The position numbers and the translations under genes are program-made. From assembly GCA_965242485.1 (NCBI GenBank), contig CBDESM010000002.1, positions 25,266-89,265 on the forward strand: 64,000 bases of DNA. The letters are read 5' to 3'. The stretch comes from Dehalococcoidia bacterium. Its GTDB lineage: Bacteria > Chloroflexota > Dehalococcoidia > Bin125. Below, piece by piece: positions 135 to 12,521 of the stretch. The notes below the pieces were generated by a model. The model searched no databases and was not told the origin of the DNA. It saw nothing but the letters and a program-made list of their open reading frames with translations. Numbering within the stretch: position 1 is the first letter of the stretch; each line of letters begins with the position of its first letter.

Positions 135-797
135 ATGACCACGCTCGCAAGCGAATCTCCGCCCTATGCCGGACTTGAAATCGGCCGCCATCCGCTGCCG
201 CCCGGCTTCGAAGCCACCGACGAGTTCATGCGCGAGGTGCAGGAACTCAATCCGGGCAAGCTGATCGAGTGCTGGAAGAACAGAGAGCTGGTGGTCACCG
301 TGGGAGCAGGCGGCAACGCATCGGCGCGCGGGGGCTCGCTGTACATCCAAGTCGACGAATGGACCGTCAAGCTGGTTCCCGGCCTCGCTGAAGAGAGCTC
401 GCAGGGGTACGACCTGCCCGACGGCACGCAGTACAAGCCCGATGTCAGCTGGATGGACGAGGCGACGGTGCGGCTGCTGAACGAGATGTACGAGACCGAT
501 CTCGACTGGCCCGAGTACCTGCCGGTCGTGCCCCGATTCGTCGTCGAGATCGCCTCGCCGTCAGACAAGCGCCGCGACAATCTTGCCCAGCAGCGGGCGA
601 AGTGCGGGCATTGGGTCGAACAGGGCGTCGGCGTCGCTTGGCTGATCGACCCGTTCGATGATCTCCTGCTCGTCTATCGCGACGGGATCGAAACCGAGAT
701 CCACCAACGTCCGGCGCGGATCGAAGTGGGGCCGGAGATGCCCGGGCTGGAGATCGACTTCGGCAGGATCTGGACTGCGCGCGGATCGCGGGGTTAG
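135..797 (+). CDS. Uma2 family endonuclease (DUF820, PD-(D/E)XK-like)
   Basis: 220 aa. Motifs PRFVVEIASPS and GVxxAWLIDP, C-terminal GPEMPGLEIDFGRIW, typical of Uma2/PF05685. Confidence 0.8.
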   Translation: MTTLASESPPYAGLEIGRHPLPPGFEATDEFMREVQELNPGKLIECWKNRELVVTVGAGGNASARGGSLYIQVDEWTVKLVPGLAEESSQGYDLPDGTQYKPDVSWMDEATVRLLNEMYETDLDWPEYLPVVPRFVVEIASPSDKRRDNLAQQRAKCGHWVEQGVGVAWLIDPFDDLLLVYRDGIETEIHQRPARIEVGPEMPGLEIDFGRIWTARGSRG

Positions 798-6326: not shown

Positions 6327-6374
6327 CCCGCGCCTGATTCAACGCAAAGCGACGGAGTGTACGAGATGCCACGC

Positions 6375-6444
6375 AAGTCAAGTCAAGTCAAGTCAAGTCA
6401 AGTCAAGTCAAGTCAAGTCAAGTCAAGTCAAGTCAAGTCAAGTC
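6375..6444 (+). repeat. Pentanucleotide microsatellite (AAGTC)14, perfect, 70 nt
   Basis: Read directly: aagtc x14 from 6375 to 6444, immediately upstream of the MTase-HNH ORF. All three frames through it are open (KSSQV cyclic peptide). Confidence 0.95.
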
Positions 6445-6451
6445 GCCCTCA

Positions 6452-7858
6452 TTGGGCCCGGGCGATCCGAACGTTGAAAACCGCACCCTCTTCGAGCACG
6501 ACAACCTCCCCGTCATGCGCGGGATCAACTCCGAAACCATCGACCTGATCGCCACCGACCCGCCCTTCAACAAGGGCCGCGACTTCCACGCCACCCCCGA
6601 CTCGCTCGCAAAAGGCGCGAGCTTCCAAGACCGATGGCGCTGGGAGGAGGACGTGCAGGCTGAGTGGGTGGACGCGATCAAAGATTCGGAGCCCGGCGCA
6701 TGGGCCGTGATCGACTGGACACGGATGACCTACGGCGACGACATGGGGGCGTTCTTGTGCTTCGTCGGGGTGCGGCTATTGGAGATGCGGCGGGTGTTGA
6801 AGCCGACGGGGAGCATCTACCTCCACTGCGATGACACAGCGAGTGCATACCTGAAGACGCTGATGGACGCGATCTTCGGGCGGCAGAATTTCCGCAATGC
6901 GATCAAGTGGTGCTACACGGGACCAAGCGTAGCCAAGCGTTGGTTCCCTCGAAAGAGTGATTCGATCCTCTTCTATGCGAAGAGCGATGCGAGTACGTTC
7001 AATTCGCAACGGAAACCGCACAAGTCAGGTATCCACAATAACGGAACGGTCTTCGGAAAGATCGACGGTGATGCCGAGCAAATGCGGCAACGGGAAGTAG
7101 ATGGGAAGCTTGTCGAGGACTGGTGGGATGATTTTGGTGCCGGAGCACATATCGCTAAGGGCGAGCGCACTGGCTACCCGACACAGAAACCGCTCGCGCT
7201 TTATGATCGGATCATCCGGGCCTCGTCAAATGAGGGTGATTGGGTGCTGGATCCGTTCGCGGGGTGCGCGACTACGCCATTGGCGGCGGAGATGGCGGGG
7301 CGGCGCTGGATCGGGATCGACCTTTGGGACGGGGCGATGCAGACCACGATTGAACGTTTCCAGAAGACGGTGAAGCTGGCGGCTGCGGATACTGCGGTCA
7401 ATACGATGGCGATCATCGGCCAGCTGCACCACCGTACTGATGTGCCAGAACGTACTGATGGCGGGGATGCGGCTGCGCCATATCTGGCGACGCCGACGAA
7501 GGGGATGCGGCGCAGGCCGTTGATGGGCGTGAGCGAGATGAAAGAGCTGCTGGTCGATAAATTTTGGTTCCATTGCTGGGGCTGTAATTTCGTCGCGCCC
7601 GACGCGCGCTATCTCGAACTCGACCACATCCGCCCGCGCAATTCCGGCGGCTCCGACGATATCGACAACCGCGCCCTGCTCTGCGGCCCCTGCAATAAGA
7701 TCAAGCGCGACCACGCGACGCTGGTCAGCCTCCGAAAGGCCAACGAGAAATCAGGCCACCTCAGCGGCACGCACCCGATCAACCTCAAAGAAGCCGGCCG
7801 CTGGACCCGCCAACAGTACGAAGCAGCCCTCGCCAAGCGCCTCGGCGCAGAAGCCTAG
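6452..7858 (+). CDS. Beta-class N6A/N4C DNA methyltransferase fused to a C-terminal HNH endonuclease domain
   Basis: Motif IV DPPF (IATDPPFNKG) precedes motif I (LDPFAGCATT), i.e. beta class, PF01555-like. The C-terminus HCWGCNF...LELDHIRPRNSGGSDDIDNRALLCGPCNKIK is a clear HNH motif. GC (~52-60%) is lower than the neighbours. The annotated start is a TTG with no SD directly after the repeat, so the true start and frame linkage depend on repeat number. Confidence 0.8.
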   Translation: MGPGDPNVENRTLFEHDNLPVMRGINSETIDLIATDPPFNKGRDFHATPDSLAKGASFQDRWRWEEDVQAEWVDAIKDSEPGAWAVIDWTRMTYGDDMGAFLCFVGVRLLEMRRVLKPTGSIYLHCDDTASAYLKTLMDAIFGRQNFRNAIKWCYTGPSVAKRWFPRKSDSILFYAKSDASTFNSQRKPHKSGIHNNGTVFGKIDGDAEQMRQREVDGKLVEDWWDDFGAGAHIAKGERTGYPTQKPLALYDRIIRASSNEGDWVLDPFAGCATTPLAAEMAGRRWIGIDLWDGAMQTTIERFQKTVKLAAADTAVNTMAIIGQLHHRTDVPERTDGGDAAAPYLATPTKGMRRRPLMGVSEMKELLVDKFWFHCWGCNFVAPDARYLELDHIRPRNSGGSDDIDNRALLCGPCNKIKRDHATLVSLRKANEKSGHLSGTHPINLKEAGRWTRQQYEAALAKRLGAEA

Positions 7859-7930: not shown

Positions 7931-8560
7931 ATGGTCAGCGCGCCAGCCATCGAGACCATCGAGGATGCGGCCGAGGCCGCCCGCGAGGGCCCGCCCGTCT
8001 GCTTCCACCCGAACGCGCCCGTCTCCGACGAGCAGCTCACGCAATGGGCCGGCCAGTTCGAGCTCTGGTTCGAGGACGGCGAAGAAGGAGAGATCATCAT
8101 CACTGGAGGAGCAGGCGGCGACTCGCCGAACATCACCTTGGAAGCGTCGGGGCAAGCCGCAAACTGGTCAGTGAACCTCCTCATCGGCATGTGCCGCGAC
8201 GCGCAGGGCGGCTACCACCCGCCGCTCGGACGCCGCTGGATCCCCGACCTCAGCTGGCTCAGCGACGAGACCCTGGCCAAACTCACGGAATCGCAGCGGC
8301 GCGGCGTCTGCTGGCCTGTCGCGCCGGATTTCGTGCTCGAAGTCGTCTCGCCCAGCCAACAACTCTCCAAGCAGCAGGAAAAGATGCGCGGCTGGATCGC
8401 CGCCGAAGTCCGGCTCGGGATGCTGATCTCCCCAGATGACGAACTGGTCGAGCTCTACCGCGCCGACGGCTCCGTCGAAACCTTCCACCGCCCCGACGCC
8501 GTCTCCTGCGACCCCGTCATGCCCGGCTTCACCATGACTTTCGAGCGCATCTGGCGCTGA
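7931..8560 (+). CDS. Uma2 family endonuclease, tandem copy 1
   Basis: 209 aa; PDFVLEVVSPS, GMLISPDDELVELYR, PGFTMTFERIWR. RBS AAGGAG upstream. Confidence 0.8.
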   Translation: MVSAPAIETIEDAAEAAREGPPVCFHPNAPVSDEQLTQWAGQFELWFEDGEEGEIIITGGAGGDSPNITLEASGQAANWSVNLLIGMCRDAQGGYHPPLGRRWIPDLSWLSDETLAKLTESQRRGVCWPVAPDFVLEVVSPSQQLSKQQEKMRGWIAAEVRLGMLISPDDELVELYRADGSVETFHRPDAVSCDPVMPGFTMTFERIWR

Positions 8561-8594
8561 GCCGTACCCGGTACCCTTCTTGCGAGGAGCAGCC

Positions 8595-9224
8595 ATGGTC
8601 AGCGCGCCAGCCATCGAGACCATCGAAGACGCAGCCGAGGCCGCCCGCAAAGGCCCGCCCGTCTGTTTCCGCCCGAACACGCCCGTCTCCGACGAGCAGC
8701 TCGCGCAATGGGCCGGCCAGTTCGAGCTCTGGTTCGAGGACGGCGAAAAAGGGGAGATCATCATCACTGGACCACCAGGCGGACTCGCATCCGATCACAC
8801 CAGCGAAATCGTCGCGGACATGATCTTCTGGTCCCGCCGCCGCGGAGGCGGCCGGGCGCGGGAGTCGCAACGCGGCTTCGACCCACCGTTCGGACGCCGC
8901 TGGGTTCCCGACGCCAGCTGGGTCAGCGAAGAAACGCTCGCCAAACTCACCGAGGCGCAAAAGCGCCGACCCTTCTGGCCCGTCGCGCCCGATTTCGTGC
9001 TCGAAGTCGTCTCGCCCAGCCAGCAGCTCTCCAAGCAGCAGGAAAAGATGCGCGGCTGGATCGCCGCCGAAGTCCGGCTCGGGATGCTGATCTCGCCAGA
9101 CGACGAACTGGTCGAGCTCTACCGCGCCGACGGCTCCGTCGAAACCTTCCATCGCCCCGACGCCGTCTCCTGCGACCCCGTCATGCCCGGCTTCACCATG
9201 ACTTTCGAGCGCATCTGGCGCTGA
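8595..9224 (+). CDS. Uma2 family endonuclease, tandem copy 2
   Basis: Start at MVSAPAIETIEDAAEAARKG (Met 8595). First ~55 and last ~100 residues are near-identical to copy 1; the central ~50 residues are divergent. Confidence 0.8.
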   Translation: MVSAPAIETIEDAAEAARKGPPVCFRPNTPVSDEQLAQWAGQFELWFEDGEKGEIIITGPPGGLASDHTSEIVADMIFWSRRRGGGRARESQRGFDPPFGRRWVPDASWVSEETLAKLTEAQKRRPFWPVAPDFVLEVVSPSQQLSKQQEKMRGWIAAEVRLGMLISPDDELVELYRADGSVETFHRPDAVSCDPVMPGFTMTFERIWR

Positions 9225-9260
9225 GCCGCTACCCGGTACCCTGCTTGCGAGGAGCAGCCA

Positions 9261-9887
9261 ATGGTCAGTGCGCCAGCCATCGAGACCATCGAGGATGCGG
9301 CCGAGGCCGCCCGCGAGGGCCCGCCCGTCTGCTTCCGCATCACTGCGCCCGTCTCCGACGAACAGCTCGCGCAATGGGCCGGCCAGTTCGAGCTCTGGTT
9401 CGAGGACGGCGAAAAAGGAGAGATCATCATCACTGGACCACCAGGCGGTTTGGCATCCGACCACACCAGCGAAATCATCGTCGACATGGGCCTCTGGGCC
9501 CGCATCACCGGCGGCCGCGCGCGCGACTCGCAGCGCGGATTCCACCCGCCGCTCGGACGCCGCTGGGTTCCCGACGCCAGCTGGGTCAGCGAAGAAACGC
9601 TCGCCAAACTCACCGAGGCGCAGAAACGCCGCCCCTTCTGGCCCGTCGCGCCCGATTTCGTGCTCGAAGTCGTCTCGCCCAGCCAGCAACTCTCCAAGCA
9701 GCAGGAAAAGATGCGCGGCTGGATCGCCGCCGAAGTCCGGCTCGGGATGCTGATCTCCCCAGACGACGAACTGGTCGAGCTCTACCGCGCCGACGGCTCC
9801 GTCGAAACCTTCCACCGCCCCGACGCCGTCTCCTGCGACCCCGTCATGCCCGGCTTCACCATGACTTTCGAGCGCATCTGGCGCTGA
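9261..9887 (+). CDS. Uma2 family endonuclease, tandem copy 3
   Basis: 208 aa, near-identical to copy 2 except in the central block. Confidence 0.8.
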   Translation: MVSAPAIETIEDAAEAAREGPPVCFRITAPVSDEQLAQWAGQFELWFEDGEKGEIIITGPPGGLASDHTSEIIVDMGLWARITGGRARDSQRGFHPPLGRRWVPDASWVSEETLAKLTEAQKRRPFWPVAPDFVLEVVSPSQQLSKQQEKMRGWIAAEVRLGMLISPDDELVELYRADGSVETFHRPDAVSCDPVMPGFTMTFERIWR

Positions 9888-9899
9888 GCCGCTATCTGT

Positions 9900-11399
9900 T
9901 TACGCGCGGGCCAAGAGGCGGATGGCGAAGACGGCGGAGAGCGCGAGCGCGACGGCAGAGAGGGCGATCAGCGGGTATTCCCAAGGGAAGCCGCTGTCTA
10001 CGGGGAAGAACGGGGCGGGGCGGCGCTCTGATTGCCGGGCGCGGATTTCGCCGGTGCGGGCGCTGATCTCCGCTTCCGAACGGTCGTCGACCCAGCCGTC
10101 CTCGTCATCGGCGGGGGCGTCAGCCGCGGCCTCGTCTCCCGCGTCGTCCCCGGCTGCCGCCGCATCGCCTTCGTCCGCGTCCGACTCGGCGTCGTCCTGC
10201 TGCTGCGCGTCTTCAGCCGCTGGTTGCTCGGCTCGGCCGTCATCCTCGGATTCCTCGTCGGCGATGACGGGGCCGGAGATGACTTCGTCTTCGACGGTGG
10301 TGCTGCGGTCTTCGCCGCGTTCGCGGGGGGCGAGGCCGACCGACTCGCGCCATTGATTCTCGAGTTCGTCGCGGCCGAAGCCGTAGACCTCTTGGAGCGC
10401 GTTCTCCGTGGTCGAGCCGGCCTTGAAGACGCGGAACAGCTCGGCTATCAAGGGGCCGCCGTACCGCTCGATCAGGAAGTCCACGATCGCGGCGGACTGC
10501 CCGTAGAAGAGGTCGACTTGGCCGGCGAGGTTGGTCGACGATTCCATCGCGCGCAGGGTCAGCACGGCATCGGCGCGGATCGCCCGATTGACGGCGGGCA
10601 TGCGGCGCTCGCGCCAGTCGAGCTCGCGGATCGTGGCCATGCCCTCGTCGAGCCAGGCGGGGATCGCGCCAATGCCGCCCTCGCCGGCGACCTTGGTCAG
10701 CACGTGCGTCACTTCATGGCGGACCACCCAGCGGGTCGGCGTGAAGACGTGGATCAGGTCGGCGAGGACGCGCTGGCCGCCCGTGACGACCTCTTCGGAG
10801 TAGCCCTCGGGCCGCGGGCGGTCGACCCCTTGCGCGTCTTCGCTGCCCAGCCAGACGTAGATGTGGATCGGGAAGCCGACTTCGGTTTCCAGCAGCGCTT
10901 CGCTGGTTTCGAGCGACTCCGCGCCTTCGGCGGCGAGCACGGCAGCGAGCTCCTCCGCGCCGTAGTAGTGGATGATCACGTCGCCGCGGCGGACTTCGCG
11001 CCACTCGTAGCGCGGGTCCTCGTAGGCCCACGGCTCGAGCTCGGTCAGGTGCTCCTCGCCGTCGGCCGTGATCAGCTGCCACTGCCACTCGAAGCGGGAG
11101 CCGGCGGGAATCCAGACGTCGCCGCGGGCGGTCGGGATCTCCGCCCGCAGGCGGGTCGCGTCGCCGGCGGTGATCTCGGCCGGCAGGCGGGTGATCGCGC
11201 CTTCGGGCAGCACGCGGTAGAGCAGCGTCGCTTCGGAGAGTTCCGCGCCGCGCACGAGTGCGGAGACGTCGACCGTGGCCGGCCAGTTGTCGCGGCGGAA
11301 GTCGGTGCTGACGACCTGGGGGGACTGCGCGGAGATCGCCGGACCGAGCCAGGCGAGGGCGGCAGCGGCGATCAGCAGGGCCAGCGCGGCCTTCCTCAC
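9900..11399 (-). CDS. Secreted peptidase MA-like zinc metallohydrolase with acidic linker and C-terminal membrane anchor
   Basis: HExxH (HEVTHVL) in a peptidase_MA-like context; signal-like N-terminus; Asp/Glu/Ala-rich low-complexity region; C-terminal hydrophobic helix. Likely GTG start at 11399 that overlaps the prfB stop (GTGA). Confidence 0.6.
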   Translation of the reverse strand: MRKAALALLIAAAALAWLGPAISAQSPQVVSTDFRRDNWPATVDVSALVRGAELSEATLLYRVLPEGAITRLPAEITAGDATRLRAEIPTARGDVWIPAGSRFEWQWQLITADGEEHLTELEPWAYEDPRYEWREVRRGDVIIHYYGAEELAAVLAAEGAESLETSEALLETEVGFPIHIYVWLGSEDAQGVDRPRPEGYSEEVVTGGQRVLADLIHVFTPTRWVVRHEVTHVLTKVAGEGGIGAIPAWLDEGMATIRELDWRERRMPAVNRAIRADAVLTLRAMESSTNLAGQVDLFYGQSAAIVDFLIERYGGPLIAELFRVFKAGSTTENALQEVYGFGRDELENQWRESVGLAPRERGEDRSTTVEDEVISGPVIADEESEDDGRAEQPAAEDAQQQDDAESDADEGDAAAAGDDAGDEAAADAPADDEDGWVDDRSEAEISARTGEIRARQSERRPAPFFPVDSGFPWEYPLIALSAVALALSAVFAIRLLARA

Positions 11400-12521
11400 G
11401 CCGCCGCCCCTTCGGCGATCCTCGTCTGCAGCCAGGCGCGCATCAGCGGTTCGACCTCGCCGTCCAGCACGCCCGTCGTGTCCGAGGTTTCCCACTGCGT
11501 CCTCAGATCCTTGACCATCTGGTACGGGTGCAGCACGTAGGAGCGTATCTGGTTGCCCCAGGCGGGCTGCTTGCGTTCGCCGCGCAGCGCCTGCTTCTCC
11601 GCCTCCTGCCGTTCCTCCTCCAGTTTCAGCAGCTTGGCCATCAGCACGGTTTTCGCGCTCTCGCGGTTGCGCCTGAGCGAACGTTCGTTCTGGCAGGAGA
11701 CGACGATCCCAGTCGGCAGGTGCGTGATCCGCACCGCGGTCGAGTTCTTCTGCACGTTCTGCCCTCCGTGCCCGGAAGCGCGGAACACGTCCGTCTTGAG
11801 GTCGTTCTCCTCGTCGATCTCGATCTCGGCCGCGCCCTCGACTTCGGGCAAGATCACGACCTCGGCGAAAGCGGTGTGGCGCAGCTTGTCGTTGTCGAAC
11901 GGGGAAATGCGGACCAGCCGGTGGACGCCGTGCTCGGAACGGAGCCAGCCGTAGGCGGAATCGCCCTTGACTTCGATGATGGTGCTTTTGATCCCGGCCT
12001 CGTCGCCGCGCACGACATCGATCAGGTCGGCGTCGAAGCCGCCGCGCTCGGCCCAGCGCAAGTACATCCGCTGGAGCATCTCGGCCCAGTCCTGCGCGTC
12101 GACGCCGCCGGTGCCGGGGCGCAGCTCGATGATCGCGTTGCGCTCGTCGTAGGGCCCGGAGAAGGCGAGCTGGAAGGATTCGCGCTCGATCGCGCCGGCG
12201 ATCTGCTCAACCTCGGAGTCCATATCGGTCGCGAGCTCGAGCCGCTCGGCTTCGTCGTCGACCAGCGCGGCGAGCTCGATCAGCTCCTTGGCGTCGCGGA
12301 TGCGGCGGTCGAGGCCGTCCCACGTTTCGATCATGGCCTGGCGCGAGGCGAGCCGCCGCATGTGCGCCCGCGCCCGCTCGCCGTCGTCCCAGAAGCCGGC
12401 GGCGGCGGACTCCCGTTCAAGTCGCGCCGCTTCCGCGCGCATCGCGGTCAGGTCAAAGACGCTCCAAGACGTCGCGCAGCCGCGCCTCGACCTCGTTCAG
12501 CAGGTCCTGCAGATCGTCCAC
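11396..12521 (-). CDS. prfB: Peptide chain release factor 2, with programmed +1 ribosomal frameshift
   Basis: The downstream frame (11396-12442) aligns to RF2 from residue ~27, including the GGQ region (SGHGGQNVQK). On the minus strand upstream I read GTG-GAC-GAT-...-GAG-CGT-CTT-TGA-C (22 codons, GTG at 12521), i.e. the canonical CUU-UGA-C shift site preceded by an internal SD (GGAG). Confidence 0.9.
12452..12458 (-). promoter_or_regulatory. prfB: prfB +1 frameshift site CTT TGA C (autoregulatory recoding signal)
   Basis: Minus-strand reading ...ttggagcgtCTTTGACctgaccgcgATGcgc...; the in-frame TGA is at 12455-12453. Confidence 0.85.

What the first reader, a model, noticed from the sequence alone, without database searches (positions are those of the whole stretch)
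6357..6548. Perfect (AAGTC)14 pentanucleotide tract positioned to switch the reading frame of an MTase-HNH gene (candidate phase-variable methyltransferase)
Seen directly: 14 perfect AAGTC units (6375-6444) sit between a GGAG-RBS/ATG at 6366 and the methyltransferase ORF at 6452. Because the unit is 5 nt, every frame through the tract is open, and unit-number changes shift the downstream frame. With 14 units the ATG at 6366 is out of frame (offset 86 nt) and terminates at 6548. The MTase frame has only an SD-less TTG at 6452. With 13 or 16 units the ATG-6366 ORF fuses in-frame to the MTase-HNH. Established knowledge: slipped-strand mispairing at 4-5-nt repeats in or before mod/hsd genes produces ON/OFF phasevarions (Haemophilus, Neisseria, Helicobacter). 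It is rarely reported in high-GC genomes. A 70-nt perfect microsatellite is very unlikely to persist by chance in a 70% GC chromosome.
Basis: partly seen in the sequence, partly recalled or inferred. Interest (0 to 1): 0.82.

Follow-up and report, generated by a model that had tools for sequence, protein, structure and literature searches.

The report
Repeat-switched DNA methyltransferase-nuclease gene, currently off
A perfect 14-copy AAGTC repeat sits just after the start codon of a DNA methyltransferase-HNH nuclease gene in an uncultured Chloroflexota bacterium, and its copy number differs in every related population examined, so this is very probably a slippage-driven on/off switch of a familiar kind, found in an unfamiliar enzyme type and phylum.

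Summary
(AAGTC)14 lies at 6375-6444, nine bases after an SD-led ATG (6366). It puts that ATG out of frame with a 468-aa N6_N4-methyltransferase + HNH ORF (6452-7858). Copy numbers of 10, 13 or 16 would restore the frame.

Comparative data support the phase-variation reading:
- Eleven syntenic orthologous loci from metagenomes have the same ATG.
- Three alleles without the tract start at that ATG in frame. One of them has exactly the n=1 length.
- Eight alleles carry perfect AAGTC tracts of 3, 5, 5, 5, 5, 6, 8 and at least 21 units.
- The gene is under strong purifying selection (dN/dS 0.07 between two tract-bearing alleles).
- It has a hypervariable central target-recognition region, like modA alleles.
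- Three distant homologues (Paracoccaceae, Tepidiformaceae) carry C13, G10 or C10 runs right after their own ATG.

Caveats:
- All 8 countable tract alleles, including the window, are OFF in the consensus sequence.
- No ON-state protein exists in the database.
- Switching within a population, methylation and nuclease activity were not testable.

Verdict: a new member of a known kind (an SSR phase-variable methyltransferase or R-M enzyme). It is not Type I, III or IIG. Moderate interest.

The parts
6354..6357 (+). Shine-Dalgarno-like GGAG, 8 nt upstream of the ATG
   Evidence: Read directly. GGAG/GGAA plus ATG is conserved at the same spacing in all 12 orthologous loci, with or without the tract.
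6366..6368 (+). Authentic start codon of the methyltransferase-HNH gene (currently out of frame)
   Evidence: Tract-less orthologues L002, L022 and L021 start here in frame. Codon 2 varies only at its third position (CCA/CCC/CCG) among tract-bearing loci.
6375..6444 (+). (AAGTC)14 perfect pentanucleotide tract; the hypermutable switch element
   Evidence: Orthologous tracts have 3, 5, 5, 5, 5, 6, 8 and at least 21 units.
6445..6459 (+). Right flank GCCCTCATTGGGCCC, invariant in all 9 tract-bearing loci; it contains TTG 6452-6454, the first start codon in the methyltransferase frame and a possible leaky start
   Evidence: There is no purine-rich SD in front of the TTG. In L021 the TTG is TGG.
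6366..6548 (+). 60-aa out-of-frame product of the present (n=14, OFF) state
   Evidence: Its GC by codon position is 0.39/0.69/0.52, which is not gene-like.
6452..7858 (+). Methyltransferase-HNH ORF, 468 aa as it stands (495 aa if n=13)
   Evidence: Pfam N6_N4_Mtase 3.7e-40 (residues 30-297) and HNH 2.1e-9 (residues 375-419). PADLOC best match is MTase_II. The fold matches beta-class MTases CcrM, M.RsrI, M.BceJIV and M.MboIIA.
6515..6517 (+). Met22 ATG, an internal start chosen by gene callers in some OFF orthologues; unlikely to give an active enzyme
   Evidence: P0006, P0007, P0009 and P0011 start here. Invariant L13 and N18 and near-invariant N7, N10, R11, T12, D17 and L19 lie upstream. Modelled strand 12-15 and helix 18-24 also lie upstream.
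6884..7171 (+). Hypervariable central region (residues ~145-240), the presumed target-recognition domain
   Evidence: Mean column identity is 0.02-0.4 here, against 0.8-1.0 in the N- and C-terminal parts across 12 orthologous alleles. It has the lowest G+C in the region, 0.56.
7574..7708 (+). HNH nuclease domain with CWGC...DH...N...CGPC zinc-finger/catalytic pattern
   Evidence: Columns C375, G377, C378, D391, H392, N406, C411, C414 and N415 are invariant in 90 homologues.
7931..9887 (+). Three tandem Uma2-family (putative endonuclease) genes downstream (7931-8560, 8580-9224, 9261-9887); neighbours, probably not part of the switch
   Evidence: L015 has only one, and L002 and L017-L022 have none, so they are not required partners.

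Best explanation
The AAGTC tract is a slipped-strand hypermutable repeat lying in codons 4 onwards of a stand-alone gene. That gene encodes a beta-class amino-methyltransferase fused to a C-terminal HNH nuclease. Translation starts at the SD-led ATG 6366 and runs through the tract. Only copy numbers n = 1 mod 3 (such as 10, 13 or 16) deliver ribosomes into the enzyme frame, giving a full-length protein with an N-terminal (KSSQV)n tail. With n = 14 the gene is OFF: a 60-aa nonsense peptide is made and ribosomes on it cover the weak TTG. Gain or loss of units during replication switches the gene ON and OFF heritably but reversibly. The lineage therefore carries subpopulations with and without this methylation, and probably restriction, activity. 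Exchange of the central target-recognition region changes which sequence is recognised. Shown here: tract anatomy, the orthologous start codon, copy-number polymorphism between populations, purifying selection, and target-recognition-region (TRD) mosaicism. Inferred: slippage as the mutational process, reversibility within a clone, enzyme activities, and the biological pay-off. I favour bet-hedging of an R-M-like barrier and its cost, with methylome change as a consequence, over a dedicated regulon.
For: The frame arithmetic was verified. The domains are N6_N4_Mtase + HNH. The ATG and SD are conserved in 12 of 12 orthologous syntenic loci, and three tract-less alleles initiate there in frame. 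One of these (L021) is 48 nt from the ATG to the conserved AAC, exactly the n=1 length. Tract lengths are 3, 5, 5, 5, 5, 6, 8, 14 and at least 21, and all tracts are perfect although the host genes have diverged to dS 0.5-1.5. This implies continuous turnover by slippage. Two scaffolds break inside the tract: L018 has an N-gap between 10 and 11 units, and L020 has a gap with a duplicated left flank. For the two same-TRD pairs of tract-bearing alleles compared, dN/dS is 0.068 (window vs L001, dS 0.54) and 0.09 (L017 vs L018), and all 9 ORFs are intact. The conserved N and C parts with a hypervariable centre match the allele structure of phase-variable mod genes. Residues upstream of Met22 are invariant and structured, so an upstream start is required. 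There is independent recurrence: homologues at 52-66% identity in a Paracoccaceae MAG and two Tepidiformaceae MAGs carry C13, G10 and C10 runs immediately after their own ATG. That is 3 of the 7 homopolymers of at least 9 nt in 73 kb of these loci, roughly p~1e-5 for the position by my arithmetic.
Against: All 8 tract-bearing alleles whose length could be counted are out of frame (n mod 3 = 0 or 2). If the states were equiprobable and independent, p = (2/3)^8 = 0.04, but four share n=5 and may not be independent. No protein beginning MPRKSSQV... fused to the enzyme exists among 5.8 billion clusters. Strong purifying selection on alleles that are OFF in every consensus could instead mean expression from another start; the TTG is conserved in 9 of 9 tract alleles. 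No reads were available, so within-population length heterogeneity and reversibility are not shown. Methyltransferase and nuclease activities are inferred from motifs only.
Confidence: 0.7

Rival explanations
1. Leaky or constitutive expression. The enzyme is really translated from TTG 6452, alone or by re-initiation after the short upstream ORF. The tract then sits in a translated leader and at most tunes the expression level rather than switching it ON and OFF.
For: All 8 countable tract alleles are out of frame with the ATG, yet the ORF is under strong purifying selection. The TTG and its 15-nt context are invariant in 9 of 9 tract alleles. Gene callers picked the TTG for P0001, P0002, P0003 and P0005. 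The OFF-frame ORFs end only 22-95 nt past the TTG, so re-initiation is conceivable.
Against: There is no SD-like sequence before the TTG, whereas the ATG has a conserved GGAG. In L021 the TTG is TGG and the ATG is used. Ribosomes started at the strong ATG would run over the TTG. This view does not explain why a perfect, length-variable tract is kept exactly between the ancestral start and the enzyme. It also does not explain why unrelated homologues have homopolymers at the same place. The invariant 15 nt may simply have been inherited together with the tract.
Confidence: 0.15
2. Three-state switch. In the sister clade (L016, L019, L020) the n = 2 mod 3 frame ends at TAATG, overlapping the Met22 ATG. 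That state could therefore produce, by translational coupling, an N-terminally truncated protein that lacks methyltransferase activity but keeps the HNH domain. n = 1 would give the full enzyme and n = 0 would give nothing.
For: TAA overlaps the ATG of Met22 in L016, L019 and L020. n = 2 mod 3 is the commonest state, in 6 of 8 alleles. Gene callers predict the 448-509 aa Met22 products.
Against: The overlap is absent from the window's own clade, where the stop lies 30 nt downstream of Met22. The TAA derives from a GTA valine codon and may be coincidental. A truncated protein would lose invariant residues and a core strand, and a free nuclease without cognate methylation should be toxic.
Confidence: 0.07
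3. Decaying gene or neutral microsatellite. The frameshift has killed the gene and the tract is a selectively irrelevant expansion.
For: The consensus state is OFF everywhere. The G+C of the gene is lower than that of its surroundings.
Against: The ORF is intact in all 9 tract-bearing loci, with dN/dS 0.07-0.09 for the two same-TRD pairs, the window-L001 pair at dS 0.54. Catalytic motifs are invariant. A neutral 70-nt sequence would not stay perfect at this divergence without ongoing slippage.
Confidence: 0.04
4. Assembly or sequencing artefact.
For: Repeats can be mis-assembled, and two scaffolds have gaps at the tract.
Against: The same tract with the same flanks occurs in nine independent assemblies from different samples and technologies.
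Confidence: 0.01

Closest known systems
Phase-variable Type III mod genes (modA/modB/modD of Haemophilus and Neisseria; the survey of Atack et al. 2018, PMC5909438)
   Same: A short-unit SSR lies inside the 5' coding region, so unit number sets the reading frame. The enzyme is a beta-class N6_N4 methyltransferase. The 5' and 3' gene ends are conserved and the central target-recognition region differs between alleles. Tract length differs between strains. Pentanucleotide units are already known (GCACA, CCCAA, ACCGA) and environmental species are included.
   Different: There is no res gene: the downstream genes are Uma2, Peptidase_MA_2 and RF2. The nuclease is an HNH domain fused to the C-terminus of the methyltransferase itself. 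PADLOC scores it best as MTase_II. The AAGTC unit was not found in the literature in connection with a phase-variable methyltransferase. The host is an uncultured Chloroflexota, not a host-adapted pathogen.
Phase-variable Type IIG single-polypeptide R-M enzyme Cj0031 of Campylobacter jejuni (PMC4889913)
   Same: One polypeptide combines nuclease and methyltransferase and is switched by an intragenic SSR.
   Different: From general knowledge, Type IIG enzymes have an N-terminal PD-(D/E)XK nuclease and a gamma-class methyltransferase, and the Cj0031 tract is a poly-G inside the ORF. Here the methyltransferase is beta-class with a C-terminal HNH and a pentanucleotide tract at the N-terminus.
M.MmyCI of Mycoplasma mycoides (AG dinucleotide repeats in the methyltransferase coding region, PMC3498834)
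   Same: A repeat in the methyltransferase coding region causes premature termination in some length states (abstract).
   Different: It is a Type III system with a dinucleotide unit in a low-GC host.
Solved beta-class methyltransferases CcrM (6pbd), M.RsrI (1eg2), M.BceJIV (8urk), M.MboIIA (1g60)
   Same: These are the best fold and sequence matches for residues ~10-310.
   Different: None carries an HNH domain, none is known to me as phase-variable, and identity is only 20-25%.

Membership tests
SSR-mediated phase-variable DNA methyltransferase | A simple sequence repeat lies in the ORF (or promoter), positioned so that unit changes shift the reading frame | tested here: met
   (AAGTC)14 begins at codon 4. 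Only n = 1 mod 3 gives the full ORF.
SSR-mediated phase-variable DNA methyltransferase | Tract length is polymorphic among strains or populations at the same locus | tested here: met
   There are 3, 5, 5, 5, 5, 6, 8, 14 and at least 21 units in 9 syntenic loci with identical flanks.
SSR-mediated phase-variable DNA methyltransferase | Both ON and OFF length states occur in nature | tested here: not met
   All 8 countable tract alleles are OFF. The only ON alleles are tract-less (L002, L022) or n=1-like (L021). No ON protein is in the database. The sample is small.
SSR-mediated phase-variable DNA methyltransferase | High-frequency, reversible length change occurs within a clonal population | not testable with these tools
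   No reads were available. There is only indirect evidence: the tracts are perfect despite dS 0.5-1.5, and scaffolds break at the tract.
SSR-mediated phase-variable DNA methyltransferase | The gene encodes an active methyltransferase when ON | tested here: inconclusive
   DPPF, the FAGCATT-type motifs and the fold are conserved, and dN/dS is 0.07. Activity and motif were not measured.
Phasevarion (phase-variable regulon) | ON/OFF state changes the expression of multiple genes through methylation | not testable with these tools
   This needs methylome and transcriptome data from locked ON and OFF variants.
Type III R-M (Mod/Res) | A res helicase-nuclease gene is adjacent to mod | tested here: not met
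   The neighbours are a thioredoxin-like gene upstream and Uma2, Peptidase_MA_2 and RF2 downstream in every syntenic locus.
Type IIG / IIC single-chain R-M | Nuclease and methyltransferase are in one polypeptide | tested here: met
   N6_N4_Mtase 30-297 and HNH 375-419 are in one ORF. The same architecture occurs in all top homologues.
Type IIG / IIC single-chain R-M | Sequence-specific cleavage is blocked by the enzyme's own methylation | not testable with these tools
   No characterised MTase-HNH fusion was found in PDB or in the literature searches.
Pfam PF01555 N6_N4_Mtase and PF01844 HNH | Score is above the curated gathering threshold | tested here: met
   138.7 bits against a threshold of 26.7, and 37.8 bits against 21.4.

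The most novel reading that the evidence does not exclude
Stand-alone methyltransferase-HNH fusions may form a widespread, so far uncharacterised class of single-polypeptide R-M or epigenetic switches in free-living environmental bacteria (Chloroflexota/Dehalococcoidia, Alphaproteobacteria). They would have modA-like exchangeable recognition cassettes. They would have acquired a 5' hypermutable tract independently at least three times (AAGTC, poly-C, poly-G). The predominance of OFF consensus states would then reflect a costly enzyme kept in reserve as a contingency locus.
Probability: 0.35. Interest if true: 0.7.

Novelty: new member of a known kind. Interest (0 to 1): 0.58.

Why it matters
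Phase-variable methyltransferases are studied almost entirely in small-genome, host-adapted pathogens and in Type I and Type III systems. This locus extends the same switch logic to an uncharacterised enzyme architecture, a beta-class methyltransferase fused to an HNH nuclease. It also extends it to an uncultured, high-GC, free-living Chloroflexota lineage. Natural alleles already document tract-length and specificity variation. The finding gives a concrete, testable case for asking why environmental bacteria keep contingency loci. It also suggests that long-read metagenomes, which give tract length and methylation on the same read, could measure switching in situ. The independent homopolymer tracts at the same position in distant homologues suggest the family as a whole is prone to this regulation.

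Tried and rejected
- **Prophage context.** I rejected it because the neighbours are housekeeping genes: inositol-P enzymes, a thioredoxin-like gene, RF2 and FolD. PHROGs hit only the MTase and HNH domains.
- **JGI metagenome scan, exact right flank plus two units.** No hit, so this lineage is absent from that collection.
- **N-terminal-only protein search for ON-state fragments.** It returned only short N-terminal fragments of homologues, none with KSSQV repeats.
- **Generic (AAGTC)6 scan.**
  - At least 120 metagenome contigs matched.
  - The adjacent ORFs are mostly unrelated, and many look eukaryotic (Mito_carr, EF-hand, RCC1, LRR).
  - AAGTC tracts are therefore not a general marker of methyltransferases; only 1 of 125 loci had an MTase homologue, L140.
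- **PPP/GGG runs in homologue N-termini as a proxy for homopolymers.** The one case I could fetch (P0027/L148) has only C6, so the proxy is unreliable.
- **Viral homologues.** None of the 7 has a 5' SSR.
- **Antisense promoter.** An antisense promoter made by TTGACT motifs on the minus strand of the tract was considered. The spacing to the only -10-like hexamer is 14 or 19 nt and the promoter scan reports nothing there, so it was dropped.
- **Rfam.** No RNA family in the window.
- **Literature.** No paper links AAGTC repeats to a phase-variable methyltransferase, none describes phase variation in Chloroflexi, and none characterises an N6_N4_Mtase-HNH fusion.
Full report
**1. Observation.**
- Window 6375-6444 is exactly (AAGTC)14.
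- GGAG lies at 6354-6357 and ATG at 6366.
- The ATG frame reads MPRKSSQV(KSSQV)n and, with 14 units, ends at TGA 6546-6548.
- The enzyme frame is open through the tract, and its first start codon is TTG 6452; that ORF is 6452-7858, 468 aa.
- Rebuilding the locus with 10-18 units shows that only 10, 13 and 16 units fuse the ATG to the long ORF.
- A 15-nt AAGTC x3 probe is expected 0.01 times by chance and matches only inside the tract.
- No other microsatellite of comparable size exists in the 64 kb.
- The window is 69.4% G+C.

**2. The gene.**
- The ORF carries Pfam N6_N4_Mtase (residues 30-297, 3.7e-40) and HNH (375-419, 2.1e-9).
- PADLOC ranks it with Type II methyltransferases.
- PDB sequence and fold searches give the beta-class enzymes CcrM, M.RsrI, M.BceJIV and M.MboIIA, and no solved MTase-HNH fusion.
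- The HNH zinc and catalytic pattern (CWGC...DH...N...CGPC) is invariant in 90 homologues.
- The architecture is common: every one of the 120 best database hits but one (P0015) has both domains.
- I found no characterised example in the literature.
- There is no res-like partner. The neighbours are a thioredoxin-like gene upstream, and Uma2 genes, a Peptidase_MA_2 gene and RF2 downstream.

**3. Which start codon is real.**
- Eleven orthologous loci with the same gene order were recovered from ENA metagenomes and one MAG chromosome.
- All keep the SD-like GGAG/GGAA and the ATG at the same spacing.
- Two alleles lack the tract and run straight from that ATG into the enzyme: L002 (also fetched as L009; OZ242037.1, 'MAG: Dehalococcoidia bacterium') and L022, reading MPHQSS[I/T]PNVANRTLFE.
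- L021 reads ATGCCAGTCAAGCCGCCCTCATGGGAC... It is 48 nt from the ATG to the conserved AAC, exactly the length of an n=1 configuration, and it is in frame (MPVKPPSWDSSAPNV).
- The n = 1 mod 3 frame is therefore the native one.
- Codon 2 varies only at its third position (CCA/CCC/CCG).
- An alignment of 90 homologues shows invariant L13 and N18 and at least 90% conserved N7, N10, R11, T12, D17 and L19, all upstream of Met22.
- The AlphaFold model (pLDDT 81) places strand 12-15 and helix 18-24 there.
- A Met22 start would therefore delete conserved core elements.

**4. Tract polymorphism.** At the identical site, with identical flanks (ATGCCNCGC on the left, GCCCTCATTGGGCCC on the right), the unit counts are as follows.

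| Locus | Units | Note |
|---|---|---|
| window | 14 | |
| L015 | 8 | |
| L001 | 6 | |
| L014 | 5 | |
| L016 | 5 | |
| L019 | 5 | |
| L020 | 5 | scaffold gap and duplicated left flank at the tract |
| L017 | 3 | |
| L018 | at least 21 | 10 units, an N-gap, then 11 units |

- Every tract is perfect.
- The host genes have diverged to dS 0.54 (window vs L001) and about 1.5 (window vs L017).
- Perfection at that divergence requires continuing expansion and contraction, which is an inference.
- Three different alleles coexist in one sample, ERZ25070167: n=3, n=5 and tract-less.

**5. The gene is alive.**
- All nine tract-bearing ORFs are intact.
- dN/dS is 0.068 for window vs L001 and 0.09 for L017 vs L018.
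- Across the 12 alleles, the N-terminal part (residues 22-145) and the C-terminal part (240-468) are 80-100% identical.
- Residues ~145-240 are essentially unalignable between alleles. They also have the lowest G+C, 0.56 against 0.70-0.75 in the flanks.
- This is the allele structure described for phase-variable mod genes: a conserved frame with a swapped target-recognition domain.

**6. Recurrence in the family.** Among ten more distant chromosomal homologues (39-66% identity), three have homopolymers immediately after their own ATG.

| Locus | Host MAG | Sequence after ATG | State |
|---|---|---|---|
| L005 | Paracoccaceae | ATGA(C)13AAATTGG, MTPPPPNWRNRTLFHGDNL | in frame |
| L007 | Tepidiformaceae | ATG...CAAC(G)10 | one base short of the frame |
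| L012 | Tepidiformaceae | ATGCAGA(C)10 | one base short; no other in-frame start |

- These are shown.
- They are 3 of only 7 homopolymers of at least 9 nt in about 73 kb. The chance of three falling within 25 nt of this start codon is roughly 1e-5 by my arithmetic.
- These MAG chromosomes appear to come from long-read assemblies (inferred from the accession style), so exact run lengths, and hence the ON/OFF calls, are unreliable. The existence of the runs is not in doubt.
- Seven viral-contig homologues have no such tract.

**7. The puzzle.**
- All eight countable AAGTC alleles are out of frame: six have n = 2 mod 3 and two have n = 0.
- Neither protein search found an ON-state product.
- If the states were equiprobable and independent, p = 0.04. 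However, the four n=5 alleles may share ancestry.
- Either OFF is the favoured majority state of a costly enzyme, with ON cells a minority that consensus assemblies do not show, or some expression bypasses the tract.
- The TTG at 6452 is conserved in all tract alleles, but it has no SD and would be overrun by ribosomes from the ATG.
- In the sister clade the n = 2 frame ends at TAATG on Met22, which allows a coupling model. The overlap is absent in the window's clade.
- I rank these possibilities as rivals at 0.15 and 0.07.

**8. Organism.**
- RF2 from the window is 95% identical to a protein on the L015 contig. It is 57-64% identical to proteins named Chloroflexota, Dehalococcoidia or Tepidiforma sp..
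- The syntenic tract-less allele lies on a 2.85-Mb 'Dehalococcoidia bacterium' MAG chromosome.
- The window therefore comes from an uncultured Chloroflexota lineage, probably class Dehalococcoidia.

**9. Comparison with the known.**
- The mechanism is the classical one: an SSR in the 5' coding region of a methyltransferase.
- Atack et al. [quoted passage not shown]
- A Type IIG single-chain enzyme is phase-variable in C. jejuni (PMC4889913).
- This locus fails the Type III test because it has no res gene. By domain class it is not Type IIG.
- I found no paper on AAGTC tracts in methyltransferases, on phase variation in Chloroflexi, or in a 2026 review.
- It is thus a new member of a known kind, with an unusual enzyme and host.

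**10. Side survey.**
- (AAGTC) tracts of at least 6 units occur in at least 120 JGI/ENA metagenome contigs, mostly next to unrelated, often eukaryote-like genes.
- One contig (L140) has the tract 34 nt upstream of the ATG of an unrelated 609-aa N6_N4 methyltransferase.

**11. Limits.** No reads, methylation data or expression data were accessible. Switching within a population, enzyme activities and any regulon are inferred, not shown.

Noticed in passing
window 7931-8560, 8580-9224, 9261-9887 (+) and 135-797 (+): Three tandem Uma2-family (PF05685, 'putative restriction endonuclease') paralogues lie directly downstream of the MTase-HNH gene, and a fourth lies at the window start. The close relative L015 has one copy at this position and the sister clade has none, so the array is expanding or contracting locally.
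   Followed up: partly
window 12521-12452 (- strand); CTTTGAC at 12458-12452: The release factor 2 gene shows the classical programmed +1 frameshift site. A 22-codon ORF from GTG 12521 ends in CTT TGA C and is preceded by GGAG. The 348-aa ATG-initiated ORF (11396-12442) listed mechanically is therefore only the post-shift part.
   Followed up: partly
L005 3005-3017; L007 2979-2988; L012 2988-2997: Homopolymers C13, G10 and C10 lie immediately after the ATG of distant MTase-HNH homologues in a Paracoccaceae MAG and two Tepidiformaceae MAGs. L005 is in frame, and L007 and L012 are one base short. The lengths are uncertain because these appear to be long-read assemblies.
   Followed up: yes
L010 5596-5610: A C15 run lies at the 3' end of a second, separate methyltransferase-like ORF (…DPFIGSGQTALAA…), about 1 kb downstream of an MTase-HNH paralogue. 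It is in the same Tepidiformaceae MAG (OZ220489.1) that also holds L007. That genome may carry several homopolymer contingency tracts in methyltransferase genes.
   Followed up: partly
L018 1848-2056; L020 2103-2282: Two Illumina scaffolds break inside the AAGTC tract. L018 has 10 units, an N-gap, then 11 units. L020 has 5 units, an N-gap, a repeated left flank, then 5 units. This fits a tract longer than the assembler could span, or length heterogeneity in the population.
   Followed up: partly
L016, L019, L020 (stop of the n = 2 mod 3 upstream ORF): In the sister clade the out-of-frame ORF ends at TAA overlapping the Met22 ATG (TAATG), a classical translational-coupling arrangement. It is absent in the window's clade, where the stop is TGA 6546-6548.
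   Followed up: partly
L140 10150-10179 and 10213-12042: An (AAGTC)6 tract lies 34 nt upstream of the ATG of an unrelated 609-aa N6_N4 methyltransferase (28% identity to the window enzyme) on a 50% GC metagenome contig. The same repeat unit is thus associated with a second methyltransferase gene, possibly in a promoter or leader position.
   Followed up: partly
L023-L142 (metagenome) and L143-L147 (viral contigs): (AAGTC) tracts of at least 5-6 units are frequent in metagenomes (at least 120 contigs, GC 0.28-0.71). Most lie next to unrelated genes, and several have eukaryote-type domains. One ORF has a Type ISP R-M specificity domain (locus not identified) and one is a CheB-CheR fusion (L031). 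Three viral contigs share a 455-aa ORF with the tract in mid-gene.
   Followed up: partly
window 6600-7600: The MTase-HNH gene body has 56-62% G+C against 70-75% in the flanking genes, with the minimum over the variable target-recognition region. This fits horizontal exchange of that segment.
   Followed up: no
proteins P0121-P0240: Hundreds of 60-170 aa database proteins consist only of the conserved N-terminal part of this methyltransferase family, although they lie on long contigs. Some end in out-of-frame sequence (for example P0123 and P0126). They may be long-read indel errors or genuinely frameshifted genes. I did not resolve this.
   Followed up: no
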